A program made the position numbers and the translations under genes. Shown here in pieces: positions 42,977-54,544 of a DNA stretch of 64,000 bases; position 1 is the first letter of the stretch; every line of letters begins with the position of its first letter. The DNA comes from Chitinophagaceae bacterium. GTDB taxonomy: Bacteria; Bacteroidota; Bacteroidia; Chitinophagales; Chitinophagaceae. A model generated the notes under the pieces. It ran no database searches and was not told where the DNA came from. It worked only from the letters and a program-made list of their open reading frames with translations. Location: NCBI GenBank assembly GCA_035760665.1, contig DASTSN010000040.1, positions 82 to 64,081 of the forward strand. The letters run 5' to 3'.

Positions 42977-44179
42977 ATGTATCGTTTATATGGCAAAATC
43001 CAGCATTATACCTGGGGCGGTTTTGATTTTATACCCAACCTGCTGGGTATAAAAAATACTGAGCGAAAGCCTTTTGCAGAGTACTGGATGGGCGCCCATC
43101 ATTCCGCCTCTGCACAGCTGGGCAAAGAACTCTTGTCCCTCCACACATTATTACAAGAACAGAAGGAAGAACTGCTGGGGGCTTATGTTGCCAGGGAATT
43201 TGGTGATTTACCGTACTTGTTTAAAATACTGGATGTAAAAGATATGTTATCCATCCAGGTGCATCCGTCCAGGAAAGAGGCGGAAAAAGAGTTTGCCCGT
43301 GAAAATAAGGAAGGAATTCCGCTAACCGACCCCGCCAGGAATTATAAAGATGCCAATCATAAACCGGAACTGATGGTGGCACTAAGCGATTTCTGGTTGC
43401 TGCACGGGTTTAAGCCAGCGGATGAACTGCAAGCTGTGCTGCAGGATACGCCGGAATTGCAATTTCTTTTGCCCATTTTTAAAAAGGATGGATATGAAAA
43501 ACTGTATCGCACCGTTATGGAACTGCCGCAGCGGGAAGTAAATGAACGGTTGCAACCTTTGCTGGACCGGATCATCCCGTTGTATAATGAAAACAGCCTG
43601 TCCAAAAGTGATGAGAATTTTTGGGCTGCCCGGGCCGCTCTGACATTTCATCACGATGAAAATTTCGACCGGGGAATTTTTTCTATTTATTTATTTAACC
43701 TTGTTTATCTAAAACCGGGGGAAGGCATTTTCCAGGATGCTGGTGTGCCCCATGCCTACCTGGAGGGACAGAATGCTGAAATTATGGCCAACTCCGATAA
43801 CGTATTGCGGGGTGGACTGACTGCCAAGCATATTGATGTAAAGCAGTTACTCAAGCATGTGCAGTGCAGGCCGGTTCGGCCGCAAATTTTAACCGGCAAA
43901 ATAAATGAACAGCTTGAAATAGTGTATAAAACGCCGGCGAAAGAGTTTGAACTCAGTAGAATTGTGTTGAGAGGTAATGAAAAAATATCATATGTTTCCC
44001 GTACCGGTGAGGTTCTGTTGCTGACGGAAGGACGTGTACGTATAAACGTTGCCAATGAAATTACAACACTGAACAGGGGAGAGGCCGTTTTTATTGTTGC
44101 CAACCAGCCTGCCGATATTAAAGCAGCAGAGGATGCTGTGGTTTTTCGGGCAACAGTACCTGTTCACAAAGGTGAATAA
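42977..44179 (+). CDS. manA: Mannose-6-phosphate isomerase, class I
   Basis: Start at MYRLYGKIQHYTWGG; QVHP zinc-binding motif; ELMVALSDFWLLHGF; track ORF 42887 is over-extended. Confidence 0.8.
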   Translation: MYRLYGKIQHYTWGGFDFIPNLLGIKNTERKPFAEYWMGAHHSASAQLGKELLSLHTLLQEQKEELLGAYVAREFGDLPYLFKILDVKDMLSIQVHPSRKEAEKEFARENKEGIPLTDPARNYKDANHKPELMVALSDFWLLHGFKPADELQAVLQDTPELQFLLPIFKKDGYEKLYRTVMELPQREVNERLQPLLDRIIPLYNENSLSKSDENFWAARAALTFHHDENFDRGIFSIYLFNLVYLKPGEGIFQDAGVPHAYLEGQNAEIMANSDNVLRGGLTAKHIDVKQLLKHVQCRPVRPQILTGKINEQLEIVYKTPAKEFELSRIVLRGNEKISYVSRTGEVLLLTEGRVRINVANEITTLNRGEAVFIVANQPADIKAAEDAVVFRATVPVHKGE

Positions 44180-44353
44180 CTAGGCAAGCTGTTTTCGCCA
44201 ATTCCTTTATTTTTGCATTGAAACCAGTTTATCCTGAATTGCCCATAATTTTCGCAAATGCACGGCAACAATTAGGCGGCAATGCTCTTCTGCTGACAGA
44301 CAGGAATCTGAAAAAATAGCTGCCGGTAAAACGGTAAATAAAAAAATAAACAG

Positions 44354-44932
44354 ATGAAATTGAACAGAACCACCTTGATTGCTTTCGGCTTATTGCTGTT
44401 GGCTTCATCTTTATATCGTGTGTGGGACAGTAGGCCGCTAGGCTTTATACCCTTGTTTTCTATGGCTGTATTCAGTGGTATCGTTATTAAAAACAAGGCT
44501 ACCGCTTTTTTAATTCCGCTGATTTCGCTGTTTCTCAGCGATGTGTTGTATGAAGTGTTATACGTTAACCAACTGACGGAAATAAAGGGATTTTACAGTG
44601 GCCAGTTTATCAATTACGTCCTGATTGCCGGCACAACGGTAATCGGTATGCTGGTGCGTAAAGTAAATGTTTTATCGGTCACAACAGCTTCATTGAGTGC
44701 GCCAACATTGTATTTTTTCATTTCTAATTTTTTATACTGGATTACCGGCGGCACAGATATCCGCACGCAGCTTCCGTTGAACAGAACTGTTGATGGCTTA
44801 CTGCAAGCATACAACCAGGGACTTCCGTTTTACAAAGGATATGTACTGGGAACCCTGTTTTTCTCAGGAGTTTTCTTTGGAATGTATTACCTGTTAAAAC
44901 GCATGGCACCGGCTGTTGAACAGCCTGCTTAA
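44354..44932 (+). CDS. Hypothetical polytopic membrane protein (possible ECF-S-component-like transporter subunit)
   Basis: 192 aa; 5-6 TM helices; preceded by 174-nt leader. Confidence 0.45.
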   Translation: MKLNRTTLIAFGLLLLASSLYRVWDSRPLGFIPLFSMAVFSGIVIKNKATAFLIPLISLFLSDVLYEVLYVNQLTEIKGFYSGQFINYVLIAGTTVIGMLVRKVNVLSVTTASLSAPTLYFFISNFLYWITGGTDIRTQLPLNRTVDGLLQAYNQGLPFYKGYVLGTLFFSGVFFGMYYLLKRMAPAVEQPA

Positions 44933-44961
44933 CCTCGTAAGAATAACTGAATTTCTGAATA

Positions 44962-44990
44962 AAGTCCGGCGTTAAGCCGGATTTTTTATT
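44962..44990 (+). terminator. Intrinsic terminator after membrane-protein gene
   Basis: aaagtccggc-gttaa-gccggatttttta. Confidence 0.75.
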
Positions 44991-45081
44991 GCAGGTTCAT
45001 ACTTTGTACGGAATTTTTTCGGCTTGCAGTGTAGTAAAAAAGGCAGACTTGTTTCCCGTAAAAACCGCCGGTTCCGATGGC

Positions 45082-45885
45082 TTAGTCACGCAGGCTGGCG
45101 GCTACTAATTCGGCGATATCCAGTACCTGCACGCTGTCTTCTTTGGCGGCCAGTTTTACGCCATCAGTCATCATAGTATTACAAAAGGGGCAGGCAGCGG
45201 CAATTACGGGGGCGCCGGTTTCCAGTGCTTCGCTGCTTCGTTCTGCATTGACACGGGAAATACCTTTTTCTTCTTCTTTAAACATTTGGGCACCACCGGC
45301 ACCACAGCATAAGCCTTTGCTGCGGCATCGCTTCATTTCCACTAGTTCGGCATCCAGCGCTTCTAATACTTTACGCGGTGCTTCGTAAATATTATTGGCG
45401 CGTCCCAGGTAGCAACTGTCGTGGTAGGTGATGCGTTTGCCCTGGAAGGTACCGCCCTCTTTCAGCCGAATCTTACCCTCGTCAATCAATTGTTGCAACA
45501 AGGCCGTATGGTGAATTACTTCGTAATGACCACCCAGTTCCGGGTATTCGTTTTTAAGTGTATTAAAACAGTGCGGGCAGGCCGTTACAATTTTTTTGAT
45601 ACCGTAATTGTTCAGCAACTGTATGTTCTGATAGGCCATCATTTGAAACAGAAACTCATTACCGGCTCTGCGCACCGGGTCTCCTGTGCACATTTCTTCT
45701 TTCCCCAGAATCGCATAATGAATACCTGCCTTATCCAGGATGGAAACAAAAGCCCTGGTGATTTTTTGTGCACGCTGATCAAAGCTGCCGGCACAGCCCA
45801 CCCAAAACAAGATTTCGGGCGATGTTCCATTGGCAAACAACTCAGCAACCGTTGGTACAGGTTTGTCCATAAGCAGAAAAATCAA
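45082..45885 (-). CDS. (Fe-S)-binding protein with two CCG (cysteine-rich) domains, heterodisulfide-reductase subunit B/GlpC-C-terminal-like
   Basis: 267 aa; FWVGCAGSFD...CTGD and second CCG repeat (CPHCFNTLKNEYP... CCGAGG); no adjacent 4Fe-4S partner gene. Confidence 0.75.
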   Translation of the reverse strand: MIFLLMDKPVPTVAELFANGTSPEILFWVGCAGSFDQRAQKITRAFVSILDKAGIHYAILGKEEMCTGDPVRRAGNEFLFQMMAYQNIQLLNNYGIKKIVTACPHCFNTLKNEYPELGGHYEVIHHTALLQQLIDEGKIRLKEGGTFQGKRITYHDSCYLGRANNIYEAPRKVLEALDAELVEMKRCRSKGLCCGAGGAQMFKEEEKGISRVNAERSSEALETGAPVIAAACPFCNTMMTDGVKLAAKEDSVQVLDIAELVAASLRD

Positions 45886-46066
45886 TTTTCATCAAATCTA
45901 TAAAATATTATGCATTGCAAGTCGCTTGTTGAATGGCAGCTACAGAAATGAATGTGCAAAATAGGTGACCGGAGAAACTTTTAACATTTCATCACCTGGA
46001 TACATCTTTTGCAAAAAGATGAAATCCTCCATTGTTTAGGAATGGAAAGCTATTTTTGCTGCTTCT

Positions 46067-47110
46067 ATGCGGGTAAAAAATTTTTTTCAGCGGCTGACCA
46101 ACTGGGAACTATGGCCTTTTTATGTACTGTATTTTCCCATCAGCTTTGTGTGGTGCTGGTATTGTATAAAAAGCCGCTCACTCTGGTTCTTCAGTTCATC
46201 TAATCCTACCATTACATTTGGTGGTTTTGAGGGGGAAAGTAAACGGGAAATGTATGAGCAATTGCCCCCTGCTTTGTATCCCAAAACTATTTATATCCTG
46301 CATGACTGTCCTTTTGAAGAGTTGAAAACCGCAATCCGGGAAAATGGGTTTACTTATCCGTTTGTTGTCAAACCCGATGTTGGCATGAAAGGTATCCTGT
46401 TCCGAAAAATTGAAAACGAAGAGCAACTGGAAAAATACCACAGTCGAATACCGGTAGAATATATTGTTCAGGAACTGGTGGAGTTACCCGTAGAGTTGAG
46501 TGTATTTTACTACCGCCATCCCACCCACGAAAAAGGAACGATCAGTGGTTTTATACAAAAAGAACTGCTCGAGGTGTATGGCGATGGACAAAGCACCCTT
46601 TGGCAACTCATCCAGCAGCACCCACGTGCCCGTTTCAGGCTGGAAGAAATGCAACTGCGGCACGAGCACCGGCTGGACAGGATATTGCCCAAGGGACAGC
46701 ATTTTTATTTGTCATATGCCGGTAACCATAACCGCGGCGCCCGCTTTATCAATCTTGCCAACCAGGTAGACGATCGTTTGTTGAAGATATTTGATGACCT
46801 CAGTCATTACACCGGAAAATTTTATTACGGTCGTTATGATATCAAATGTAACTCGGTGGAAGAACTAAAGGCTGGCGGTCATTTTTCTATTCTTGAATTC
46901 AATGGCTGCGGGGCCGAGCCCAATCACATATACGATGCGGGCATGAAGCTTGGGCAGGCCTACAGGGAAATTCTCAAGCACTGGAAAGCCCTGTATGAAA
47001 TTAGTAAGTATAATCACGAAAACGGAACCCCTTACTGGCCTTTTCAAAAAGGACGGAAATTTCTTCGGGATGCCAAGCGCCATTTCCGCATGCTGGAAAA
47101 GTATGATTAG
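46067..47110 (+). CDS. Uncharacterised ATP-grasp-like ligase family protein, paralog A (N-terminal Trp-rich hydrophobic segment)
   Basis: 347 aa; Gly-rich loop VVKPDVGMKGILF and Mg-site-like ILEFNGCGAEPNH; about 40-45% identical to ORF 50364-51446. Confidence 0.45.
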   Translation: MRVKNFFQRLTNWELWPFYVLYFPISFVWCWYCIKSRSLWFFSSSNPTITFGGFEGESKREMYEQLPPALYPKTIYILHDCPFEELKTAIRENGFTYPFVVKPDVGMKGILFRKIENEEQLEKYHSRIPVEYIVQELVELPVELSVFYYRHPTHEKGTISGFIQKELLEVYGDGQSTLWQLIQQHPRARFRLEEMQLRHEHRLDRILPKGQHFYLSYAGNHNRGARFINLANQVDDRLLKIFDDLSHYTGKFYYGRYDIKCNSVEELKAGGHFSILEFNGCGAEPNHIYDAGMKLGQAYREILKHWKALYEISKYNHENGTPYWPFQKGRKFLRDAKRHFRMLEKYD

Positions 47111-47171
47111 CGGTTGCAGGCATTACGCATTCTTTCGTTAATTTTAATTTATCACCTGGTACAGCAATACT

Positions 47172-47873
47172 ATGACAATTGATGAACGTTTTCTGCTTAT
47201 CCGCAACTATGACCTGTGGTCGCAACTGAGCGATGAAGAATATGAAGAGCTCAATGTGGATCACCATTTTATTGAGGCCAAGAAAGGTGATTATATTTAT
47301 TTTGATTCCCATTATCTCAACAGGCTTTATTTTGTAAAAGATGGGTTTATCAAAATTGGATACGTTGATGAAGAGGGCAACGAAATCATTAAAGAAATTA
47401 TTCGTGAAGGAGAAGTGTTTGGCCAGTTTACACTGGAAAAAAACAACCTGCATGGCGAGTTTGCCCGTGCTTATAAAGCAGACGTTAGCCTTTGTTCATT
47501 TACCATCGACGATTTCGAAAAATTGCTGAAAAAAAAGCCTGAAATAGCCATTCGCTATAGCCGGCAGATGGGACAAAAGTTGCGGAATGCAGAATTTCGG
47601 TTACTGAGTTTGCTGAACAAAGATGTTCGTTCCCGGCTGCTCTCATTTTTTTATCAGTTAGCGGTGCAGAACGGTTACTCGGGCGAAGATGGAATTTTTA
47701 GCATGGATAATTTTTTAACGCACGATGATATTGCCGGTTTGATAGGTTCGGCGCGGCAAACAGTGACCACGTTTATCAACATCCTGGAAGCCGAAGGACT
47801 TGTAAAAATTACCCGGAAGCACATTACACTGCCCGATGTTAAAAAAATCCAAAAGCAGGTGATTGTCACCTGA
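47172..47873 (+). CDS. Crp/Fnr family transcriptional regulator
   Basis: 233 aa; cNMP-binding domain plus HTH (IAGLIGSARQTVTTFINILEAEG). Confidence 0.8.
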   Translation: MTIDERFLLIRNYDLWSQLSDEEYEELNVDHHFIEAKKGDYIYFDSHYLNRLYFVKDGFIKIGYVDEEGNEIIKEIIREGEVFGQFTLEKNNLHGEFARAYKADVSLCSFTIDDFEKLLKKKPEIAIRYSRQMGQKLRNAEFRLLSLLNKDVRSRLLSFFYQLAVQNGYSGEDGIFSMDNFLTHDDIAGLIGSARQTVTTFINILEAEGLVKITRKHITLPDVKKIQKQVIVT

Positions 47874-47925
47874 GCGACAATGACCGCGTAAAAGCATCTG
47901 TATTTTTGATCTGAAATAAACATGC

Positions 47926-48315
47926 ATGCTCAATAAAATTTTGCCCTGGATAGCCCGCATTGTCGCAGCAGTCATAATGCTGCAAACATTATTTTTCAAA
48001 TTTACAGGGGCGGAGGAATCGAAGTATATTTTTTCCCGCCTGCATGCCGAACCCTGGGGGCGTATTGGAAGCGGCGTGATCGAACTGCTGGCCTCAATCC
48101 TGATCTTGATTCCTGCTACTACAGGTTATGGTGCGTTGCTCGGCCTTGGAGTGATGACAGGAGCCATACTTTCTCATCTTACCGTTCTGGGTATTGATGT
48201 GCAGAACGATGGTGGTTTGTTATTTTTGTATGCAATACTGGTTTTTTTCAGTTGCCTGTATCTGGTTTGGGTCTACCGCAAGCAATTGCCTGTATTCAAT
48301 AAACTATTTGCCTGA
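47926..48315 (+). CDS. DoxX family membrane protein
   Basis: 129 aa; 4 TM; R/G-containing DoxX pattern (WIARIVAAVIMLQTLFFKFTG...GSGVIELLASILILIP). Confidence 0.8.
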   Translation: MLNKILPWIARIVAAVIMLQTLFFKFTGAEESKYIFSRLHAEPWGRIGSGVIELLASILILIPATTGYGALLGLGVMTGAILSHLTVLGIDVQNDGGLLFLYAILVFFSCLYLVWVYRKQLPVFNKLFA

Positions 48316-48574
48316 TAAATTTAGAATTTCAATATTAATAAAGTTCTTTAACAGGTTGCTTATGTTTTCTTACGGAAATGATGATGCGGTATAGCTGATT
48401 TTGCTTGTCATTTATAAAAGGATTGTGAAACTTACTGTTGTAAAAGAATTAATAAACTATTTTTGGCAAGCAACGAAAAGAATGAAAACCACGTTCTTAT
48501 ATTTTGCGTAGATAGCAGCAGATTGTTTTACCTGTTGCCGTATCGTCTTCGTAAAATTTGTTCATCAACCCGTA

Positions 48575-49123
48575 TTGATCATGAAACGTTTTTTGGCAAC
48601 TGTTTTATTCAGTTCTTTTACAGCATGGTGTATTGCTCAGCAATATTTGCCCGTGGATGAAGCATCAAAAGTAAAGTTTGTTATTAAAAACCTTGGCATT
48701 AAAACCGGGGGTACTTTTGCAGGATTGACCGGCATCATTGATTTTGATCCATCAAACCTGGCAGCGGCTAGTTTTGACGTAAGCGTGGATGCAAAAACAA
48801 TTGATACCGACATTGAAATGCGCGACAATCATTTACGGAGTGCCGAATATTTTGATGTGGAAAAATATCCGCGTCTTTCATTCAGGTCCACGCAGGTTAC
48901 AAAGTCCAACTCGGCAAAATATCTTTATATGTTTGGCAATATCACCATCAGGGGTATTACAAAAGAAATTAAATTCCCCTTTAAAGCAACACCGAAAGAT
49001 GATGGCTATCTGTTTGAAGCAGAATTTAAACTGAACAGAAGGGATTTTGGTGTCGGTGGCAGTAGTCTCACCCTATCTGATGACCTGACTGTATCACTTT
49101 CGGTGTTTGCGAAAAAAACTTAA
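48575..49123 (+). CDS. YceI-like polyisoprenoid-binding periplasmic protein
   Basis: Signal peptide; VKFVIKNLGIKTGGTFAGLTGIIDFDP...IEMRDNHLRSAEYFDVEKYPRLSFRS YceI signature. Confidence 0.85.
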   Translation: MIMKRFLATVLFSSFTAWCIAQQYLPVDEASKVKFVIKNLGIKTGGTFAGLTGIIDFDPSNLAAASFDVSVDAKTIDTDIEMRDNHLRSAEYFDVEKYPRLSFRSTQVTKSNSAKYLYMFGNITIRGITKEIKFPFKATPKDDGYLFEAEFKLNRRDFGVGGSSLTLSDDLTVSLSVFAKKT

Positions 49124-49150
49124 TTTGTCGCAAACAATTGAAGAAACCAT

Positions 49151-49648
49151 ATGCTGCAAAACGCGATACAAAACGTATTTGTACAATTAACCACCACTCT
49201 TGACCAGCTAAACCGGCAGCAATATTCGCAGCCCTGTCGTACATTATTCAATGCTACAATTGGCCAGCATGTTCGGCACATCATTGAGTTGTTTCAGTGT
49301 CTCGAAAACGGCTATGCGTCCGGGTCGGTGAATTATGAAAAAAGAAAAAGAGATACTGCCATTGAAACCAATCCACAGTTGGCCGTTTCTTTACTCAAGC
49401 AAATTTATACGCAACTCAACAGACCAGATAAACAGCTGCAACTGGAATGTGCGTATGATGAAGGATCACCGGAAACTGTCATAATAGCCACCAATTACTT
49501 TCGTGAAATCGTTTACAATCTTGAACATACAATTCACCACATGGCATTGATCAGGGTGGGGATCAAAGAAGTTGCGAATGTGCAGCTGCCCGAAAATTTT
49601 GGAGTGGCACCTTCTACCAGCAAATATCGCCAGTCATGTGCACAGTAA
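49151..49648 (+). CDS. DinB_2/YfiT-like four-helix-bundle (putative metal-dependent) protein
   Basis: 165 aa; His-containing motifs GQHVRHIIELF and EHTIHHMALI at positions expected for DinB-type metal triad; overlaps NRDE gene by 13 nt. Confidence 0.4.
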   Translation: MLQNAIQNVFVQLTTTLDQLNRQQYSQPCRTLFNATIGQHVRHIIELFQCLENGYASGSVNYEKRKRDTAIETNPQLAVSLLKQIYTQLNRPDKQLQLECAYDEGSPETVIIATNYFREIVYNLEHTIHHMALIRVGIKEVANVQLPENFGVAPSTSKYRQSCAQ

Positions 49649-50367
49649 CGTTTTTGCCCTATAAAGAAAAAGTTTTTATCACCTCGAACCGTGATGAAAA
49701 ACACTGGAGGTCGCCGGCCATCCCACCGGATTCTTATGATTTTTCCACGGGCAGGATCTTTTTTCCCAAAGATGGCGATGCAGGTGGTACCTGGTTTGCT
49801 GTGCACGAAAACGGGCAAGTAGTTGTGCTGCTCAACGGTGCTTTCCGGTTCCATCTGTCGCAGCCCCCTTACCGGAAAAGCCGCGGGGTAATTGTATTAG
49901 AGCTGGTGCAAACGGCTTCCCCTTTTGACTCATTTCGTTCTGTGAATCTTGAAAATATCGAGCCTTTCACGCTGGTGTTGTGGGAAAGAGATCAGTTGTT
50001 TGAATGCCGCTGGGATGGCGAAAAAAAACATGCCGTTATGCTGGATAAATCCATACCGCATATCTGGTCGTCTGCAACATTGTACGATGAAAAAATAGCG
50101 GCGGAACGAAAGGCCTGGTTTACGGCATGGCTGCAGGGGCAATCATCTTTTTCACAAAACGATCTTTTCCATTTTCACCGGTTTGCTGGCCACGGGGATC
50201 CTGCAAATGGCCTGATGATGAACCGCGACGGCAAAGTCTTCACCGTAAGCATTACAGGTGTTGAAATTTCACCTGCTCTTGCCCGCCTGCAATATTTTGA
50301 TGCAATGCAGAACGATTTTTATCTGCGTGAAATAAATCTTCAAAAAGAGCTTGTTGTAAAATCATGA
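49636..50367 (+). CDS. NRDE (TANGO2-like, DUF833) family protein
   Basis: N-terminal MCTVTFLP...ITSNRDE signature of NRDE family; 243 aa; stop overlaps paralog-B start (ATGA). Confidence 0.75.
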   Translation: MCTVTFLPYKEKVFITSNRDEKHWRSPAIPPDSYDFSTGRIFFPKDGDAGGTWFAVHENGQVVVLLNGAFRFHLSQPPYRKSRGVIVLELVQTASPFDSFRSVNLENIEPFTLVLWERDQLFECRWDGEKKHAVMLDKSIPHIWSSATLYDEKIAAERKAWFTAWLQGQSSFSQNDLFHFHRFAGHGDPANGLMMNRDGKVFTVSITGVEISPALARLQYFDAMQNDFYLREINLQKELVVKS

Positions 50368-51446
50368 ATGGATTGCTACGCGTCCTGCACAAACCTTTTT
50401 TTATCAAACTTTTGCATTGGGAATACTGGAGTATGACAGCTGTCTACGCTCTGATTTACCCCATTTTTTTATGGTTTTGTATCCGCAGCGGCTGGAAGTA
50501 CTTTTTTACAGCAGCCAATCCCCGTATTCGTTATGGTGGATTTTTAATGGAATCCAAAAAAGAAATCTACGACCAGTTGCCGCCGGGAACATATCCCCGT
50601 ACAATTTTAGTGGTTGCCGGCACTACGATGGATTCCCTGCTAGAAAAAGTACAGCAGGCAAAACTGCAATTCCCGCTAATTGCCAAACCTGATATTGGTA
50701 TGCGTGGGTTGGCTGTAAAAAAAATTGATTCGCCGGAAGCTTTAATCGCAACTGCGCCACGGTACAAGGTTGATTTCCTGCTGCAGGAATTTGTGCCCTT
50801 CGAAAATGAAGTGGGGATTTTTTATTATCGCTTTCCCGGGGAGGAGCGAGGCCGTTTTACCGGCATTGTGGCAAAAGAATTTTTAACCGTAACCGGCGAC
50901 GGTACACAAACGCTTGAATCGCTTTTGCAGGCAGACAAACGGTTTGTTTTGCAACTGGATGCCCTCCGGAAAGAATACGGGCAATCGATGAAAACTGTGC
51001 TGCCGGCAGGCGAAAAAAGGTTGCTGGTTCCCTATGGTAACCATGCAAGAGGTGCCAAGTTCCTTGATCACAGTTACCTGATTGATGAGGAACTACTGGC
51101 GGTTATTGATACACTATGCCGGCAGGTTCCTGATTTTTATTACGGACGACTGGATCTCCGGTATAACACCTGGGAAGAACTTCGGCAGGGTAAAAACGTT
51201 GCTGTTATTGAACTGAATGGCGCGGGCAGCGAGCCCACCCATATGTATGATCCCGCTCATTCACTGTTTTTTGCCTGGAAAGAAATTATTCGTCACTGGC
51301 ATATATTATGGAAAATTAGTGATCAGAATCACCGCCGGGGATTTCCTTACATGAGCTATTCTCAAGGTGCTGCAATGTTCAGGGATCATCGCAGGTACGT
51401 AAAAAAGTTGCAACAGGTACATCTCGCATTATTATCACATTCCTGA
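50364..51446 (+). CDS. Uncharacterised ATP-grasp-like ligase family protein, paralog B
   Basis: 360 aa; IAKPDIGMRGLAV, VIELNGAGSEPTHMYD; colinear similarity to 46067-47110 along whole length. Confidence 0.45.
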   Translation: MNGLLRVLHKPFFIKLLHWEYWSMTAVYALIYPIFLWFCIRSGWKYFFTAANPRIRYGGFLMESKKEIYDQLPPGTYPRTILVVAGTTMDSLLEKVQQAKLQFPLIAKPDIGMRGLAVKKIDSPEALIATAPRYKVDFLLQEFVPFENEVGIFYYRFPGEERGRFTGIVAKEFLTVTGDGTQTLESLLQADKRFVLQLDALRKEYGQSMKTVLPAGEKRLLVPYGNHARGAKFLDHSYLIDEELLAVIDTLCRQVPDFYYGRLDLRYNTWEELRQGKNVAVIELNGAGSEPTHMYDPAHSLFFAWKEIIRHWHILWKISDQNHRRGFPYMSYSQGAAMFRDHRRYVKKLQQVHLALLSHS

Positions 51447-51518
51447 AGAACTGACCACAATCATTTCCTTAGTTAAGTATTGTATTTTGCTGGTTTTGAT
51501 TAGTCCGTATTTTTACAA

Positions 51519-52217
51519 ATGCACAAACTGCTAAAGATTTTTTTTACTGGTATGCTGATCAGTTTTCTGGGATCGCTGCCGCTGGGAACCTTGAATGTAG
51601 CGGCTATGCAGATATCCGTTACCGAAAGCGTAGAGCATGCCATTTTATTTGCCATCGGCTCACTGATGGCGGAGATGGTGTATGTACGCCTGTCGCTGGT
51701 GGCCATGGACTGGATTCGGAAACAGGAACGTATTTTTCGCATACTCGAGTGGGTAACACTTGCCATCATCGTGGCGCTGGCGTTTTCGAGTTTTTATGCC
51801 GCCCTGCATCCTAAGGTGGAAAAAAATATTATTCTCAGCAGTACACTGCCAAAGTTCCTGCTTGGTTTGCTAATGAGTGCAGTGAATCCCGTACAGATAC
51901 CCTTCTGGTTTGGCTGGAGTACGGTATTGTTTACAAAAAAGATTTTGTTGCCGCGAAATGATCACTACAATTCCTATATCATTGGTATTGGCATTGGAAC
52001 CTTTATTGGCAATTGTGTTTTTATCTTTGGTGGCCGGTTGATGGTGGAACGGCTGAACTCCAATCAGCATATCTTAAACTGGGTGATTGGTGGTATTTTC
52101 GCCATAACGGCCCTCATACAGGTTTGGCGGATGGTCCTGAAGCGAAAAACGATTCATGAAAAACTGGAGCATCCCGAACAGGTAACACACGGACTGGAAG
52201 ATAAAATCATCAAATAA
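51519..52217 (+). CDS. LysE/RhtB-type amino-acid/metabolite exporter family membrane protein
   Basis: 232 aa; 6 TM; LGSLPLGTLN N-terminal motif typical of LysE superfamily. Confidence 0.65.
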   Translation: MHKLLKIFFTGMLISFLGSLPLGTLNVAAMQISVTESVEHAILFAIGSLMAEMVYVRLSLVAMDWIRKQERIFRILEWVTLAIIVALAFSSFYAALHPKVEKNIILSSTLPKFLLGLLMSAVNPVQIPFWFGWSTVLFTKKILLPRNDHYNSYIIGIGIGTFIGNCVFIFGGRLMVERLNSNQHILNWVIGGIFAITALIQVWRMVLKRKTIHEKLEHPEQVTHGLEDKIIK

Positions 52218-52230
52218 AACCACTTGCATT

Positions 52231-52725
52231 ATGGCATTAAAAGACGCATTATTGGCTGAATTCAAACACGAAGCTGCAGCAACTCAAAAATTACTGGAAA
52301 AAGTACCAGTTGCATCCAGCACCTGGAAACCGCATGAAAAATCAATGACGCTGGGGAGGCTTGCCACCCACATTGCAGAAATTCCCTACTGGATTGTAGA
52401 AATTCTTGGGAAGGATGAATTTGACTTTGCGGCCCGCCCATATAACCCACGTGTGGCGGCCACGCATGAAGAGCTGATGGAGATCTTTTCTAAAAATGTA
52501 GAGCAGGCAGCAGAAGCTTTATCCGCAGCGGACGACAACCTGCTGAATAAGACCTGGACTGTGCGTAACGGTGAGCACATTATGTTTGCAGCGCCTAAGA
52601 AGGTGGCCATCAGGGGTTGGGCATTTAACCACCAGTATCATCACAGGGGACAACTTTCGGTTTACCTGCGCCTGCTGGATATTCCGGTTCCGGGCATGTA
52701 CGGTCCCAGTGCGGATGAGCTGTAA
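52231..52725 (+). CDS. DinB family protein (paralog 1)
   Basis: 164 aa; WKPHEKSMT..RLATHIAE.P.W and QYHHRGQLSVYLRLLDIPVPGMYGPSADE; about 50% identical to 55870-56367. Confidence 0.7.
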   Translation: MALKDALLAEFKHEAAATQKLLEKVPVASSTWKPHEKSMTLGRLATHIAEIPYWIVEILGKDEFDFAARPYNPRVAATHEELMEIFSKNVEQAAEALSAADDNLLNKTWTVRNGEHIMFAAPKKVAIRGWAFNHQYHHRGQLSVYLRLLDIPVPGMYGPSADEL

Positions 52726-52731
52726 AACAGT

Positions 52732-53061
52732 TTAATCGACAATAAAAAGTTTGCAGCCATCGCGGCTTACAGAGCGGTGCGCCATCGAGCCATCGCCAAC
52801 AAAGTAAGTCATGCCGGGAGTTATTTTCATAACGCGTCCGTCGGCAAGTTCTGTATCCATTTCGCCTTCGATACACAGGATAATATGCCCTTTGTTGCAC
52901 CAGTGATCGGCTTTGTATTGCGGCGAATACTCCACCATTCTTACCCGAATGTCATTGACGTGTACCGTTTGCCAGTAAGCAGTGCCGGTTTCTCCTTGGT
53001 GTTCTTCTTTTGGAACTGTCTCCCATCGCAACGTTTGAAAATCAAAGGGGGCAATATTCAT
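52732..53061 (-). CDS. Cupin-fold protein (DHCW-motif-like)
   Basis: Start at MNIAPFDFQ; ADHWCNKGHIILCIEGE metal-binding-like motif; the 49-codon N-terminal extension in the track (MAITTTTTRPRPR...) looks non-coding. Confidence 0.6.
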   Translation of the reverse strand: MNIAPFDFQTLRWETVPKEEHQGETGTAYWQTVHVNDIRVRMVEYSPQYKADHWCNKGHIILCIEGEMDTELADGRVMKITPGMTYFVGDGSMAHRSVSRDGCKLFIVD

Positions 53062-53116
53062 CGTTACTCGTTTATAACAGCAAGGTGATAAATATTTTGT
53101 ATTTTCTCTGCGGAAA

Positions 53117-54544
53117 TTGTATAAACAGCAACAGATTGTTATGAATGCTCCCAGCCAGCTTAACCGTTCTCTCGGCCTCGGTCTTGTTGTGGTCGTTGTG
53201 ATTGCCAATATTATCGGTTCCGGGGTTTATAAAAAAGTGGCACCAATGGCTGCTGAGTTGCATGCATCGGGCTGGGTACTCATTTGCTGGGTGCTGGCTG
53301 GTATCATCAGCCTTTTTGGGGCCTTAAGCAATGCGGAAGTGGCAGGCCTGCTGGCTGATACCGGCGGGGAATATGTATATTATCAAAAAATCTACAACCG
53401 TTTTTTTGCCTTCCTGTTCGGCTGGTCATTATTTACCATAATTCAAACCGCAGCTATTTCTTCATTAGCCTATGTGTTTGCCCAGTCGCTCAACAGTATT
53501 GTACACTTGCCACCCATATTGTCATCCTGGTCTGATGTCTCCATTGCCGGCATATTTTATCCTTATGCTGATTTCCAGGTCAAGCTTACCGCCATTATAA
53601 TCATAGCGCTGTTTACCTGGTTTAACAGTCGTGGCGTCAGAACCGGTGCCGGTTTAAGTAGAGTGATACTGTTACTGGTTTTTGCCGGCATTTTCACAAT
53701 TATCATTTTCGGCCTCAGCAGCAGACAGGCGAATATTTCCGATGTTTTTTCTTTACACCAGGATCCCGGAAACCCGGTACACTTCAGCGCTATATTTACG
53801 GCCATGCTCGCTGCTTTCTGGGCTTACCAGGGCTGGGCTACCATCGGGTATATTGGCGGTGAAGTAAAAAATGCACGACGTGTGTTACCCGTTGGTATGG
53901 CCATCGGCATGGCTATTGTTATCAGCACATACTTGCTGGTAAATACTACCTATTTGTCCTTGCTCCCTATTAGTCGGTTGCAGGATATCTATACCAGCAC
54001 AAACAGTATTGCGGCAGTGGAAGCGGTGCGGGTTTTTTGGGGTACAAACGGGGCGATATTTATCTCTTCCCTAATTGCACTGACTACACTGGGCTGTGTT
54101 CATGCGACAATACTGGTAAGTTGCAGAACGTATTTTGCGATGGCCCGGGAAGGAATGTTTTTTAAAAGTGCAGGTAAACTGAATAACAGGCAGGTGCCTG
54201 TTAATTCGTTGTGGATGCAGGGATTGTGGGCCTGCATGCTCGTATTGTCCGGTACTTTCGATCAGCTGACGGATATGATTATTTTTAGTGTGTTTTTATT
54301 CTATGGGGCAACCACTTTGGGCGTTTTTATCCTGCGAAAAAAAATGCCCGATGCGCCGCGTCCTTACAAAGTTTGGGGCTACCCGGTGGTGCCGGCATTG
54401 GTGGTATTGTTTTGCGCAGTTCTTTTTATCAACACCATCTTTGCCAGGCCCCGGGAGGCTGGGGTCGGTATTGTACTTATGCTCACGGGTGTTCCTTTCT
54501 ATTTTTGGTTCAGGAAAAAATACCCACAAACCATTAAATCGTAA
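53117..54544 (+). CDS. APC superfamily amino-acid permease
   Basis: 475 aa; 12 TM; N-terminal GSGVYK consensus region; real start may be internal Met at 53141. Confidence 0.85.
   Translation: MYKQQQIVMNAPSQLNRSLGLGLVVVVVIANIIGSGVYKKVAPMAAELHASGWVLICWVLAGIISLFGALSNAEVAGLLADTGGEYVYYQKIYNRFFAFLFGWSLFTIIQTAAISSLAYVFAQSLNSIVHLPPILSSWSDVSIAGIFYPYADFQVKLTAIIIIALFTWFNSRGVRTGAGLSRVILLLVFAGIFTIIIFGLSSRQANISDVFSLHQDPGNPVHFSAIFTAMLAAFWAYQGWATIGYIGGEVKNARRVLPVGMAIGMAIVISTYLLVNTTYLSLLPISRLQDIYTSTNSIAAVEAVRVFWGTNGAIFISSLIALTTLGCVHATILVSCRTYFAMAREGMFFKSAGKLNNRQVPVNSLWMQGLWACMLVLSGTFDQLTDMIIFSVFLFYGATTLGVFILRKKMPDAPRPYKVWGYPVVPALVVLFCAVLFINTIFARPREAGVGIVLMLTGVPFYFWFRKKYPQTIKS

What the first reader, a model, noticed from the sequence alone, without database searches (positions are those of the whole stretch)
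45886..52217. Two diverged paralogous ATP-grasp-like proteins bracketing a Crp-DoxX-YceI-DinB_2-NRDE cassette, plus a LysE exporter: candidate uncharacterised redox/thiol-linked ligase system
ORFs 46067-47110 and 50364-51446 are clearly homologous over their full length. Shared blocks are NP.I.(F/Y)GGF..ESK.E.Y.QLPP, KPD(V/I)GM(K/R)G, YGNH.RGA.F, (I/V)(L/I)E(F/L)NG.G.EP.H.YD and a C-terminal ..HW..L..IS..NH..G.PY. They are only about 40-45% identical, so this is an old duplication. Both start with a Trp-rich hydrophobic segment. The Gly-rich KPDxGMxG loop and the E-x-N-G acidic motif fit the ATP-grasp (GshB/RimK-like) fold. This is my inference from the sequence, not a database hit. Between them, with 4-13-nt overlaps or short gaps, lie a Crp regulator, DoxX, YceI, a DinB_2/YfiT-like protein and an NRDE/TANGO2-like protein, and a LysE-type exporter follows. 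DinB_2/YfiT-fold enzymes include low-molecular-weight-thiol S-transferases and EgtB-like domains. DoxX proteins take part in thiol/quinone redox homeostasis. GshB is itself an ATP-grasp. Together this suggests synthesis, conjugation and export of an unknown amide-linked small molecule, possibly a thiol or peptide, under Crp control. A 19-bp near-palindrome, catcttttg-c-aaaaagatg, lies at about 46000, roughly 50 bp upstream of paralog A, and is a candidate operator.
Basis: partly seen in the sequence, partly recalled or inferred. Interest (0 to 1): 0.7.

Follow-up and report, generated by a model that had tools for sequence, protein, structure and literature searches.

The report
Membrane ATP-grasp ligase module with exporter
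Two anciently diverged copies of an unstudied ATP-using bond-forming enzyme sit with an exporter, a metal-binding helper protein and a bacterial relative of the human disease protein TANGO2. This partnership recurs, sometimes as fused genes, across many bacteria, and it points to an unknown small molecule that is made at the membrane and moved across it, probably during oxidative stress.

Summary
ORFs 46067-47110 (A) and 50364-51446 (B) are homologous over their full length (37% identity, E 2e-96).

The cassette is composite. The recurring core is DinB-fold protein (orf5) - ATP-grasp - LysE.
- It appears in Chitinophagaceae, Fulvivirga and two unnamed metagenome contigs. Pedobacter has orf5 - TANGO2::ATP-grasp without an adjacent LysE, and Leptospiraceae has orf5 with a DedA fusion.
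- Continuous fused ORFs exist: TANGO2::ATP-grasp, LysE::ATP-grasp and DedA::ATP-grasp.
- Paralog A is an orf5-less branch that lies next to LysE in 65 of 67 Chitinophagaceae loci.
- Crp, DoxX and YceI are variable accessories.
- Neighbours are repeatedly redox-related (YHS, DoxX, MsrA/B, thioredoxin, AhpC).

The palindrome occurs at chance frequency and is absent from about 78 orthologous upstream regions.

Best reading: a membrane-associated amide ligase coupled to a translocator, a thiol-type DinB enzyme and a Cys-Ntn amidase. The product is unknown.

The parts
46003..46021 (.).
   Evidence: It is present. Its frequency is at chance level, with 48 such palindromes in the window against 40 +/- 7 in shuffles. 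It is absent from about 78 orthologous upstream regions. Probably not part of the system.
46051..46058 (+). TATTTTTG, a match to the Bacteroidota -7 promoter consensus TAnnTTTG, 16 nt before the start codon of A
   Evidence: A TAnnTTTG-type element at the same place is visible in most of the orthologous upstream regions printed, by eye and not counted. Assigning it as a promoter is inference from the published Bacteroidota consensus.
46067..47110 (+). Paralog A: 347-aa ATP-grasp ligase with an aromatic hydrophobic N-terminal segment (residues about 13-34)
47172..47873 (+). Crp/Fnr-family regulator (accessory)
   Evidence: Pfam cNMP_binding plus HTH_Crp_2. Present after A in 16 of 67 loci. A 31%-identical Crp lies beside the B-type cluster in L083.
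47926..48315 (+). DoxX-family membrane protein (frequent accessory)
   Evidence: Pfam DoxX and DoxX_2. DoxX homologues lie in the ATP-grasp cluster in L081, L083, L085, L088 and L094. It has its own TAnnTTTG at 47901.
48575..49123 (+). YceI-like protein with a hydrophobic N-terminal leader read as a signal peptide, so probably periplasmic (accessory)
   Evidence: Pfam YceI at 121 bits. Present after A in 15 of 67 loci, and in L081. The signal-peptide reading comes from the translation by eye; no predictor was run.
49151..49648 (+). orf5: 165-aa DinB-fold protein with a candidate metal triad H40/H43...H126-x3-H130. Core partner of the ATP-grasp.
   Evidence: All 8 orthologues match Pfam DinB_2 below threshold, best E 4.6e-5. 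AF2 pLDDT 89.3. The top 13 Foldseek PDB hits are all DinB/YfiT-superfamily folds. A homologue lies immediately upstream of the ATP-grasp in at least 10 distinct contexts, including Leptospiraceae.
49636..50367 (+). TANGO2/NRDE-family putative Cys N-terminal-nucleophile hydrolase. It overlaps orf5 by 13 nt and B by 4 nt.
   Evidence: Pfam PF05742 at 45.7 bits against a cut-off of 22.6. M1-C2-T3 and S-N-R-D-E are invariant in 12 sequences. It is fused N-terminally to the ATP-grasp in P0243 (Pedobacter sp. Hv1), P0248, P0249 and P0263.
50364..51446 (+). Paralog B: 360-aa ATP-grasp ligase. This is the subfamily that travels with orf5 and TANGO2.
   Evidence: 37% identical to A over its full length, with the same invariant catalytic residues. 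The orf5-TANGO2-B trio is conserved in L020, L021, L026, L038 and L081-L085.
51519..52217 (+). LysE-family six-helix carrier, the translocator partner of the ligases
   Evidence: Pfam LysE at 58.5 bits. Adjacent to A in 65 of 67 loci. It has co-duplicated with an A-like gene in 8 loci. Fused to the ATP-grasp in P0244, P0294 and P0296. Downstream of the ATP-grasp in L082, L090, L091, L092 and L094.
52231..52725 (+).
   Evidence: Pfam DinB at 61.6 bits. It lies directly after LysE in 27 of 65 A-type loci.

Best explanation
The region holds two diverged members of one uncharacterised ATP-grasp ligase family, together with that family's usual partners.

The unit that recurs is a DinB-fold metalloprotein (orf5), then the ATP-grasp ligase, then a LysE-type membrane carrier. 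In the B branch a TANGO2-type Cys-Ntn hydrolase is inserted between orf5 and the ligase.

Proposed mechanism, with the basis for each step:
1. The ligase sits at the inner face of the cytoplasmic membrane, held by its aromatic N-terminal segment. This is inferred from hydrophobicity and from fusions to LysE and DedA.
2. It uses ATP to activate a carboxylate as an acyl-phosphate and joins it to an amine, making a small amide-linked compound. The fold and catalytic residues are shown. The chemistry follows from what is established for ATP-grasp enzymes. The substrates are unknown.
3. The LysE carrier, or DedA in Leptospira, moves this compound or a derivative across the membrane (inferred).
4. 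The DinB-fold partner uses or modifies the compound, most plausibly as a metal-dependent thiol transferase like other DinB-fold enzymes (inferred).
5. The TANGO2-type enzyme cleaves or transfers the same kind of amide bond for turnover or recycling (inferred). This would resemble the amidase half of glutathionylspermidine synthetase/amidase, or the Mca/Bca amidases of mycothiol and bacillithiol detoxification.

The physiological setting is envelope oxidative or electrophile stress. Paralog A is an orf5-less sister that shares the same LysE. Crp, DoxX and YceI are lineage-variable accessories.
For: ATP-grasp identity:
- AF2 model pLDDT 89.8, pTM 0.85.
- Foldseek top 50 hits are all ATP-grasp enzymes: CphA2 at 1e-10, then CphA1, GshAB and Ddl.
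- A family profile against PDB sequences hits the CphA2 ATP-grasp domain at E 8e-6 and GshAB at 1e-3, aligning K-P...G-x-x-G and E-x-N.
- In 152 diverse members, K102 is kept in 152 of 152, R256 and D258 in 151 of 151, E277 in 147 of 149 and N279 in 148 of 149.

Coupling to partners:
- Continuous fused ORFs exist for TANGO2::ATP-grasp (Pedobacter sp. Hv1 WP_055131527.1 and three other clusters), LysE::ATP-grasp (Psychroserpens and two other clusters) and DedA/VTT::ATP-grasp (two Leptospiraceae clusters).
- orf5 homologues at 34-67% identity lie immediately upstream of the ligase in Panacibacter, Pedobacter, Fulvivirga, Bacteroidia, Leptospiraceae and unnamed metagenome contigs.
- LysE follows A in 65 of 67 loci, and 8 loci carry a co-duplicated A'-LysE' pair.
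- The 13-nt and 4-nt overlaps of orf5/TANGO2/B are conserved.

Partner identities:
- orf5 has the DinB fold.
- The TANGO2-like protein has invariant Cys2 and NRDE. These correspond by motif position (not aligned here) to Cys2 and Asn25/Arg26/Asp27, four of the six residues that the human TANGO2 crystal-structure paper assigns to a Cys-Ntn hydrolase active site (PMC13044924). The equivalents of Asn157 and Lys166 were not checked.

Membrane association:
- The N-terminal 19-mer has a Wimley-White octanol energy of -17.4 (A) and -14.2 (B) kcal/mol.
- The W-E-x-W motif is conserved family-wide.

Redox context: YHS, DoxX, DM13, DUF1223, MsrB, MsrA, thioredoxin, AhpC and glutaredoxin-type genes recur around the ligase in unrelated taxa.
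Against: - No substrate, product or activity is known for any member, and no paper in the searchable library describes the association.
- The thiol link rests only on analogy with DinB-fold enzymes and on neighbouring genes.
- Most of the 80 A-type loci come from one family, Chitinophagaceae, so their synteny could be inherited rather than selected.
- Paralog A, the Psychroserpens fusion (L086) and the Saprospiraceae member (L093) have no adjacent orf5, so orf5 is not obligatory.
- If the ligase product itself is exported, the role of a cytoplasmic amidase is unclear.
- DedA proteins are not known amino-acid exporters, which fits a lipid-type substrate better.
- Whether the N-terminal segment is a monotopic anchor, a transmembrane helix or a buried structural element was not resolved.
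Confidence: 0.45

Rival explanations
1. Membrane-lipid or lipid-linked head-group modification. The ligase, embedded in the membrane interface by its Trp-rich segment, adds an amino acid to the carboxylate of an amphipathic lipid such as an N-acyl amino acid or aminolipid (or the reverse). LysE or DedA then flips the product to the outer leaflet. The TANGO2-type enzyme acts as a lipid amidase.
For: - The enzyme is fused to two unrelated polytopic membrane proteins, LysE and DedA/VTT. From general knowledge, DedA proteins are implicated in lipid and undecaprenyl-phosphate translocation.
- The hydrophobic aromatic N-terminal segment with conserved W-E-x-W fits an interfacial anchor.
- The human TANGO2 structure paper argues for hydrophobic fatty-acid-derived amide substrates and compares the protein with acid ceramidase, NAAA and bile-salt hydrolase.
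- From general knowledge, YceI proteins bind polyisoprenoid lipids.
- P0296 also gives a weak hit to the sulfolipid-addressing protein family.
Against: - No acyltransferase or other lipid-synthesis gene recurs in the neighbourhoods seen.
- The nearest structural relatives all ligate soluble amino acids or peptides.
- DinB-fold enzymes and the Msr, Trx and AhpC neighbours point to soluble redox chemistry.
- LysE-family members with known function export small amino acids.
Confidence: 0.2
2. Protein or peptide C-terminal modification in the manner of RimK or LysX/ArgX. The ligase would add residues to, or build a metabolite on, the C-terminus of a small partner protein, with orf5 as carrier. The TANGO2-type amidase would release the product.
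For: - orf5 is small and always immediately upstream.
- Its extreme C-terminus, C-A-Q, is invariant in the B-type loci.
Against: - The C-A-Q invariance is explained by the 13-nt overlap ATGTGCACAGTAA with the invariant M-C-T-V start of the TANGO2 gene.
- Where no TANGO2 gene overlaps, orf5 C-termini are unrelated...KVSS...QQAPSA...FRSQG...KEAMAH.
- orf5 has an enzyme-like DinB fold with a His triad, not a LysW-like zinc ribbon with an acidic tail.
- A works without any orf5.
Confidence: 0.08
3. Secreted dipeptide-type secondary metabolite. The ligase would be an L-amino-acid ligase like BacD or RizA, making an antibiotic or signalling dipeptide exported by LysE. The redox neighbours would be coincidental.
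For: - A dedicated exporter sits next to the ligase.
- One A-type member is fused to a YqcI/YcgG domain (P0262). That family is recalled from memory, not checked here, to include amino-acid N-hydroxylases of natural-product pathways.
Against: - A-LysE is a fixed, syntenic pair in essentially every Chitinophagaceae genome sampled, always beside the same housekeeping CCG gene. It is not a patchy accessory cluster.
- No precursor-supply or self-resistance genes recur.
- Redox neighbours recur in four independent lineages.
Confidence: 0.1
4. Nothing shared. The paralogs would be ordinary cytosolic ligases, for example D-Ala-D-Ala ligases as some NCBI records name B homologues. The neighbouring genes would be unrelated, and the arrangement an accident of synteny.
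For: - NCBI and JGI names on some B homologues read 'D-alanine--D-alanine ligase' or 'D-alanine-D-alanine ligase-like ATP-grasp enzyme'.
- Most loci examined come from a single family.
Against: - No Pfam or NCBIfam Ddl model reaches its cut-off. Dala_Dala_lig_C matches only 5 of 80 members, at best E 0.0038.
- No Ddl N-domain match was seen in the Pfam scans; in its place there is a hydrophobic helical segment.
- Independent fusions to TANGO2, LysE and DedA, and the same gene order in Spirochaetota, cannot be inherited synteny.
Confidence: 0.03

Closest known systems
Cyanophycin synthetase G (ATP-grasp) domain, CphA2 and CphA1 (PDB 7ta5, 8fxh, 7lg5)
   Different: A and B have 347-360 aa against 585-880 aa. 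They lack the N domain and the Mur-ligase-like M domain. Instead they carry a hydrophobic N-terminal segment and two extra C-terminal helices. Identity is only 17-20%. Nothing suggests polymer synthesis.
Glutathione synthetases: the GshAB ATP-grasp domain (3ln6) and GshB (1gsa)
   Different: No family model reaches threshold. There is no gamma-glutamylcysteine ligase partner. The membrane segment and the LysE/DedA fusions are unknown in Gsh enzymes.
Glutathionylspermidine synthetase/amidase (E. coli GspSA), from general knowledge
   Same: It works like the TANGO2::ATP-grasp fusions. An N-terminal Cys-nucleophile amidase is joined to a C-terminal ATP-dependent amide synthetase, so one protein both makes and breaks an amide conjugate, under redox control.
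   Different: The GspSA amidase is a CHAP domain, not an Ntn hydrolase. The synthetase belongs to a different ATP-grasp-like family. There is no sequence relationship, no DinB partner and no carrier.
Mycothiol and bacillithiol conjugation pathways (MshC/BshC ligase; DinB-fold S-transferases MST and BstA/YfiT; Mca/Bca amidase; export of the cysteine conjugate), from general knowledge
   Same: The cast of functions is the same: an ATP-dependent ligase, a DinB-fold metalloenzyme, an amidase and an exporter. orf5 matches YfiT (1rxq) and other DinB structures by fold.
   Different: None of the enzymes is homologous except at the DinB-fold level. The ligase here is an ATP-grasp, not an aminoacyl-tRNA-synthetase-like enzyme. 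The amidase is a Cys-Ntn hydrolase, not a zinc deacetylase. No thiol has been demonstrated.
D-alanine--D-alanine ligase (the name given to B homologues in some records)
   Different: No Ddl model passes threshold. No Ddl N-domain match was seen and identity is 11-15%. The membrane segment and the gene context are unrelated to cell-wall synthesis.
Human TANGO2 (PDB 8sv7; PMC13044924)
   Same: The window protein 49636-50367 belongs to the same Pfam family. It keeps Cys2 and the N-R-D(E) motif that the crystal-structure paper assigns to a Cys-Ntn hydrolase active site.
   Different: It is a bacterial protein of 243 aa, translationally coupled or fused to an ATP-grasp ligase. No such partner is known for the eukaryotic protein. 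The substrate is unknown for both.

Membership tests
ATP-grasp superfamily (A and B) | Three-domain ATP-grasp fold | tested here: met
ATP-grasp superfamily (A and B) | ATP-binding lysine and flexible Gly-rich loop | tested here: met
   K102-P-D-x-G106-x-x-G109 aligns with the corresponding K-P...G-x-K-G of CphA2. K102 is kept in 152 of 152, G106 in 147 and G109 in 149 of 152 family representatives.
ATP-grasp superfamily (A and B) | Mg/phosphate-binding R-x-D and E-x-N motifs | tested here: met
   R256 and D258 are kept in 151 of 151, E277 in 147 of 149 and N279 in 148 of 149. E-x-N aligns with E-I-N of CphA2.
ATP-grasp superfamily (A and B) | ATP-dependent carboxylate-nucleophile ligation | not testable with these tools
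   Requires an enzyme assay.
D-alanine--D-alanine ligase | Match to Ddl family models (Dala_Dala_lig_N and Dala_Dala_lig_C, NCBIfam Ddl) at curated cut-off | tested here: not met
   No Pfam hit for A or B at E 0.01. No Ddl hit in NCBIfam. Dala_Dala_lig_C matches only 5 of 80 members, at best E 0.0038 and below cut-off, and no N-domain hit was found.
Cyanophycin synthetase | N domain plus G (ATP-grasp) domain plus M (Mur-ligase-like) domain | tested here: not met
   Only the G-domain region aligns, residues about 93-283. The NCBIfam cyanophycin synthetase model scores 14 bits against a cut-off of 850. The protein has 347 aa.
TANGO2/NRDE family, PF05742 (49636-50367) | Pfam model above gathering score | tested here: met
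   45.7 bits against 22.6, E 1.2e-11.
TANGO2/NRDE family, PF05742 (49636-50367) | N-terminal Cys2 and the N-R-D-E motif (proposed Ntn active site) | tested here: met
   M1-C2-T3 and S17-N18-R19-D20-E21 are invariant in 12 sequences, including four fusions in which the TANGO2 part keeps the free N-terminus. The residues were assigned in human TANGO2 by PMC13044924; the correspondence is by motif position, not by an alignment made here. Hydrolase activity itself was not tested.
DinB/YfiT superfamily (orf5, 49151-49648) | Pfam DinB_2 or DinB model at gathering score | tested here: not met
   The window protein scores 12.7 bits against a cut-off of 24.8. All 8 orthologues match DinB_2 but below the cut-off, best E 4.6e-5. 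One database homologue (P0466) carries a precomputed PF12867 hit, and some sources name homologues DinB family proteins.
DinB/YfiT superfamily (orf5, 49151-49648) | Four-helix-bundle DinB fold | tested here: met
   AF2 pLDDT 89.3. The top 13 Foldseek PDB hits are all DinB/YfiT-superfamily folds: 2f22 with TM 0.64/0.72, then 3dka, 2qe9, 3gor and 1rxq, plus ClbS (7mtl). Probabilities are 0.9-1.0, but E-values are only 2e-3 to 9e-2.
DinB/YfiT superfamily (orf5, 49151-49648) | Metal-binding His triad (H ... H-x3-H) | tested here: inconclusive
   H40, H43, H126, H129 and H130 are invariant, and the spacing H126-x3-H130 fits the superfamily pattern. The positions were not superposed on a solved metal site.
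LysE translocator family, PF01810 (51519-52217) | Pfam model above gathering score, with multiple hydrophobic helices | tested here: met
   58.5 bits against 25.6, covering 3-186 of 193 model positions. Several Kyte-Doolittle windows exceed 1.6. No NCBIfam equivalog (ArgO, RhtB, LeuE or similar) matches, so substrate class is not assigned.
Crp/Fnr regulators (47172-47873) | cNMP-binding domain plus C-terminal Crp-type HTH | tested here: met
   PF00027 at 43 bits and PF13545 at 44.9 bits, both above cut-off. No NCBIfam equivalog is reached.

The most novel reading that the evidence does not exclude
The orf5 (DinB-fold) - TANGO2-type amidase - ATP-grasp - LysE module would be a previously unrecognised pathway that makes, uses, recycles and exports a low-molecular-weight thiol or other antioxidant amide in Bacteroidota and Leptospira. 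On this reading the bacterial TANGO2::ATP-grasp fusions give the first biochemical context for the TANGO2 family: an Ntn amidase or acyltransferase acting on the product of a dedicated amide ligase. That would make the long-disputed substrate of human TANGO2 experimentally approachable through a tractable bacterial operon.
Probability: 0.15. Interest if true: 0.85.

Novelty: new variant of a known kind. Interest (0 to 1): 0.6.

Why it matters
- The ATP-grasp family here is large: 3,485 clusters at 50% identity with E up to 1e-3, of which 1,470 are below 1e-30. It has no curated model and is either unnamed or mislabelled as D-Ala-D-Ala ligase.
- Its architecture is unusual for ATP-grasp enzymes. 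It has a conserved aromatic membrane segment and natural fusions to LysE or DedA carriers.
- It is genetically welded to a TANGO2-family protein. Human TANGO2 deficiency is a serious metabolic disorder. The protein's activity is still argued over (haem chaperone, acyl-CoA binder or Cys-Ntn hydrolase). A conserved bacterial ligase partner narrows the search to amide-linked substrates and offers a simple system to find them.
- The consistent redox-stress neighbourhood suggests an unexplored envelope-protection chemistry in Bacteroidota.

Tried and rejected
1. Palindrome as operator. I counted equivalent palindromes (48 observed, about 40 expected) and inspected about 78 orthologous upstream regions (none has it). 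Rejected as unsupported.
2. Riboswitch or other RNA element that might name the ligand. Rfam in E-value mode over 44000-54000 found nothing.
3. orf5 as a LysW-like carrier with a conserved C-terminal tail. The C-A-Q conservation is a by-product of the gene overlap, and the tail is not conserved elsewhere. Rejected.
4. D-Ala-D-Ala ligase identity. It fails the family models and shows no N-domain match.
5. Curated family assignment for A and B. Pfam gives none. NCBIfam gives only 14-25-bit partial hits to CPS-like and cyanophycin synthetase models whose cut-offs are 218-850 bits.
6. Literature. Four searches combining ATP-grasp with NRDE, TANGO2, LysE, DinB, YHS or DoxX found no description of the system.
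8. Sigma-70-type promoter and intrinsic-terminator scans gave counts at shuffle level, and they are not suited to Bacteroidota.
9. Search for remnants of YHS, DM13, DUF1223 or the 249-aa protein in the window, including the 259-nt DoxX-YceI gap. None was found.

Full report
OBSERVATION

- A: 46067-47110, 347 aa.
- Crp: 47172-47873.
- DoxX: 47926-48315.
- YceI: 48575-49123.
- orf5: 49151-49648.
- TANGO2-like: 49636-50367.
- B: 50364-51446, 360 aa.
- LysE: 51519-52217.
All lie on the + strand. The gaps are 61, 52, 259, 27, -13, -4 and 72 nt.

BLASTP of A against B gives 37% identity and 60% positives over 342 residues with no gaps, E 2e-96. Pfam confirms Crp, DoxX, YceI, TANGO2 and LysE above gathering score. 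It finds nothing for A, B or orf5.

The window comes from a Chitinophagaceae MAG. The orf5 protein is 100% identical to locus VFS36_05365 of "MAG TPA: Chitinophagaceae bacterium".

ARE THE PARALOGS ATP-GRASP ENZYMES? YES.

Sequence alone gives only weak hits.
- NCBIfam partial matches to carbamoyl-phosphate-synthase-like and cyanophycin synthetase models are far below cut-off.
- phmmer against PDB finds the ATP-grasp domain of cyanophycin synthetase 2 at E 7e-4.
- A profile of 80 family members raises this to 8e-6 for CphA2 and 1e-3 for GshAB. The alignment places K102-P-D-x-G-x-x-G on the ATP-binding lysine and Gly loop, and E277-x-N279 on the Mg site.

Structure prediction settles the question.
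- An AlphaFold2 model of A built on that alignment has mean pLDDT 89.8 and pTM 0.85.
- Foldseek against the PDB returns only ATP-grasp enzymes in the top 50: CphA2 at 1e-10, then CphA1, GshAB, Ddl and VanA.

Catalytic residues are kept across the family. In an alignment of A, B and 150 diverse 50%-identity representatives, K102 is kept in 152 of 152, R256 and D258 in 151 of 151, E277 in 147 of 149, N279 in 148 of 149 and G280 in 149 of 149.

The classical N-terminal domain of ATP-grasp enzymes is largely replaced by short helices. These include an aromatic hydrophobic stretch, WPFYVLYFPISFVWCWYCI in A. Its Wimley-White octanol energy (-17.4 kcal/mol for A, -14.2 for B) is that of a membrane-embedded segment. 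It begins with a W-E-x-W motif conserved family-wide.

The family is large, with 3,485 clusters at E up to 1e-3 and 1,470 below 1e-30. It has no curated model. The "D-alanine--D-alanine ligase" name on some B homologues fails the Ddl family models.

WHAT IS THE UNIT?

A scan of one genome per species returned 80 loci. All are A orthologues at 65-81% identity, nearly all labelled Chitinophagaceae or related Bacteroidota. I located the window's proteins in them by tblastn. Of 67 loci with enough downstream sequence:
- 65 have the divergent CCG-domain gene upstream.
- 65 have LysE downstream of A, 59 of them within 1 kb.
- 27 of 65 have a canonical DinB gene directly after LysE, as in the window at 52231-52725.
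- 16 have Crp.
- 15 have YceI.
- 8 have a second A-like gene (43-53% identity) followed by its own second LysE (36-40% identity).
- Only 4 (L020, L021, L026, L038) have DoxX...orf5-TANGO2-B inserted between A and LysE, as the window does.

So the bracketing is incidental. A-LysE is one conserved pair, and orf5-TANGO2-B is a separate block.

Look-ups of B-type proteins show the orf5-TANGO2-B block without A, with the same 13-nt and 4-nt overlaps.
- Panacibacter ginsenosidivorans: YHS-DoxX-249aa-DM13-YceI-orf5-TANGO2-B.
- L082: CCG(-)|orf5-TANGO2-B-LysE.
- L083: Crp(-), Trx(-), YHS-DoxX-DM13-orf5-TANGO2-B-DUF1223.

FUSIONS AND DISTANT TAXA

Among the 150 best family representatives several are about 530-600 aa. 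Pfam shows what is fused.
- TANGO2 N-terminal to the ligase: P0243, P0248, P0249, P0263.
- LysE N-terminal to the ligase: P0244, P0294, P0296.
- DedA/VTT N-terminal to the ligase: P0363. P0377 has the same length and is named a VTT-domain protein by its source, but was not scanned against Pfam.
- YqcI/YcgG C-terminal: P0262.
- MORN_2 C-terminal: P0286.

The fusions looked up (P0243, P0244, P0294 and P0363) are continuous ORFs in assembled DNA, and two come from named organisms.
- Pedobacter sp. Hv1 (RefSeq WP_055131527.1), in the order YHS-147aa-DoxX-orf5-TANGO2::ligase-DUF1223-MsrB.
- Psychroserpens, in several assemblies, among MsrA x2, AhpC-like, CMD, aldo-keto reductase and a glutaredoxin/pyridine-nucleotide oxidoreductase.
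- Leptospiraceae: DinB_2-like, then DedA::ligase, with DoxX and YHS alongside.

Further unfused contexts repeat the same genes.
- Fulvivirga: YHS-orf5-ligase-LysE.
- L089: orf5-LysE::ligase.
- L091: orf5-ligase-LysE.
- L092: orf5-ligase-LysE.
- L094: DoxX-orf5-ligase-LysE.
- A Saprospiraceae member sits next to MsrA.

The orf5 homologues in these loci are 34-46% identical to the window's, with E 1e-30 to 1e-56. Inherited synteny cannot explain the same partners in Bacteroidota and Spirochaetota, nor the independent fusions. The recurring core is therefore orf5 - ligase - LysE (or DedA), with TANGO2 added in the B branch.

THE PARTNERS

orf5
- It matches Pfam DinB_2 only below threshold, though all 8 orthologues do, with best E 4.6e-5.
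- Its AF2 model (pLDDT 89.3) finds DinB/YfiT-superfamily structures as its top 13 PDB matches, with TM up to 0.64/0.72.
- Invariant H40/H43 and H126-x3-H130 fit the superfamily's metal triad. I did not superpose them on a solved site.
- The invariant C-terminus C-A-Q in the B-type loci is explained by the overlap ATGTGCACAGTAA. That sequence also encodes the invariant M-C-T-V start of the TANGO2 gene. The tail is not conserved where there is no overlap.

TANGO2-like protein
- It keeps Cys2 and S-N-R-D-E in all 12 sequences compared.
- In every fusion it occupies the N-terminus, as an N-terminal-nucleophile enzyme requires.
- The 2026 crystal structure of human TANGO2 assigns Cys2, Asn25, Arg26, Asp27, Asn157 and Lys166 to a Cys-Ntn hydrolase site. 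It leaves the substrate open and suggests hydrophobic amides (PMC13044924). The bacterial Cys2 and NRDE correspond to the first four by motif position; I did not align the two proteins or check the Asn157 and Lys166 equivalents.

LysE
- It matches Pfam at 58.5 bits but no NCBIfam equivalog, so its substrate class is open.

HOW IT MOST LIKELY WORKS

Shown:
- A complete ATP-grasp catalytic apparatus.
- A membrane-type N-terminal segment.
- Physical or genetic coupling to a carrier, a DinB-fold protein and a Cys-Ntn-type protein.
- Redox-stress neighbours.

From established ATP-grasp chemistry: the enzyme should form an acyl-phosphate from a carboxylate and pass it to an amine (less often a thiol or hydroxyl).

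Inferred:
- The enzyme works at the inner face of the membrane. The TANGO2 fusions argue that the hydrophobic segment is monotopic rather than membrane-spanning, because both the TANGO2 and ATP-grasp domains must be cytoplasmic.
- Its product, or a conjugate of it, is moved by LysE or DedA.
- orf5 acts on the product as DinB-fold thiol transferases do.
- The TANGO2-type enzyme cleaves or transfers the amide.

Two precedents have the same logic. The first is glutathionylspermidine synthetase/amidase. The second is the mycothiol and bacillithiol cycle of ligase, DinB-fold S-transferase, amidase and export of the cysteine conjugate. Both come from general knowledge, not from tests made here.

I put 0.45 on the general model and much less on any specific product. 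The rivals are listed separately: lipid head-group modification with a flippase (0.2), secreted dipeptide (0.1), protein C-terminal modification (0.08) and no shared function (0.03).

REGULATION

- The proposed operator is not supported.
- What is conserved upstream of A is a TAnnTTTG element 8-16 nt before the start codon in most orthologous loci, judged by eye. It matches the Bacteroidota -7 promoter consensus as I know it from the literature.
- Similar elements precede DoxX (47901) and lie in the DoxX-YceI gap (48458).
- This suggests the transcription units A(-Crp), DoxX, and YceI-orf5-TANGO2-B(-LysE-DinB). That division is inference.
- No Rfam element is present.
- A Crp-family gene accompanies the system in 16 of 67 A loci and in L083, so a regulatory role is plausible but untested.

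NOVELTY AND VERDICT

The fold and general chemistry are known. The following are undescribed in the libraries and papers searched:
- the family itself;
- its membrane segment;
- its fusions to LysE, DedA and TANGO2;
- its fixed DinB-fold partner.

I rate it a new variant of a known kind, with interest 0.6. The main value is a bacterial handle on TANGO2-family biochemistry and a candidate envelope redox pathway in Bacteroidota.

Noticed in passing
It follows LysE directly in 27 of 65 A-type loci. So both ATP-grasp paralogs have a DinB-superfamily neighbour: orf5 upstream of B, and this one downstream of A-LysE.
   Followed up: partly
window 49636-49648: The 13-nt overlap ATGTGCACAGTAA encodes both the C-A-Q-stop end of orf5 and the M-C-T-V start of the TANGO2-like gene. 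The overlap is conserved in every B-type locus seen. It explains the otherwise puzzling invariance of the orf5 C-terminus.
   Followed up: yes
window 46051-46058, 47901-47908, 48458-48465: TATTTTTG matches to the Bacteroidota -7 promoter consensus TAnnTTTG. The one before A is conserved 8-16 nt upstream of the start codon in most orthologous loci, judged by eye, which implies a very short leader.
   Followed up: partly
L086 3913-7938, L087 2701-6731, L092 8203-13062: In Psychroserpens and in a Bacteroidia MAG the ligase/LysE genes lie beside the same three genes: a Rieske::TPP-enzyme fusion (about 650 aa), an unannotated protein of about 275 aa, and a Na+/H+ exchanger-family protein. L092 also has a ferric-reductase::Rieske protein. 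This second recurring neighbourhood has unknown meaning.
   Followed up: no
P0262 (589 aa, ENA contig of 3.5 kb) and P0286 (558 aa): Two further fusions of the ligase. One has a C-terminal YqcI/YcgG domain (177.6 bits). The other has a C-terminal region with a MORN_2 repeat. From memory and not checked here, the YqcI/YcgG family includes haem-dependent N-hydroxylases of guanidino or amino acids, which would hint at an arginine-like substrate for that member.
   Followed up: no
window 48316-48574: The 259-nt gap between DoxX and YceI is where relatives carry extra genes: a 249-aa protein with a signal-peptide-like N-terminus in L020, L050 and L081, and DM13 in L081. No remnant of these genes was detected in the window, so it has a reduced version of the cassette, also lacking YHS.
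   Followed up: partly
window 52732-53208 (-) and 53117-54544 (+): The listed TTG start of the amino-acid permease-like ORF (475 aa) overlaps the 5' end of the oppositely oriented ORF (its L082 homologue, 62% identical, carries no Pfam hit) by about 90 nt. The true permease start is probably further downstream. Both genes are common neighbours of A-LysE-DinB in other loci.
   Followed up: no
L014 about 490-595 and L041 about 9891-9920 (upstream of A orthologues): Short tandem repeats, CATCGTA-type units in L014 and TGCCCAT units in L041, occupy the divergent promoter region between the CCG gene and A in two relatives.
   Followed up: no
L082 (JGI contig Ga0613621_000003): In this relative the orf5-TANGO2-B trio occupies the position next to the CCG gene and before the orthologous LysE (64% identity), the place where A normally sits. 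No A gene is in the locus. This suggests A and B are interchangeable with respect to this LysE.
   Followed up: partly
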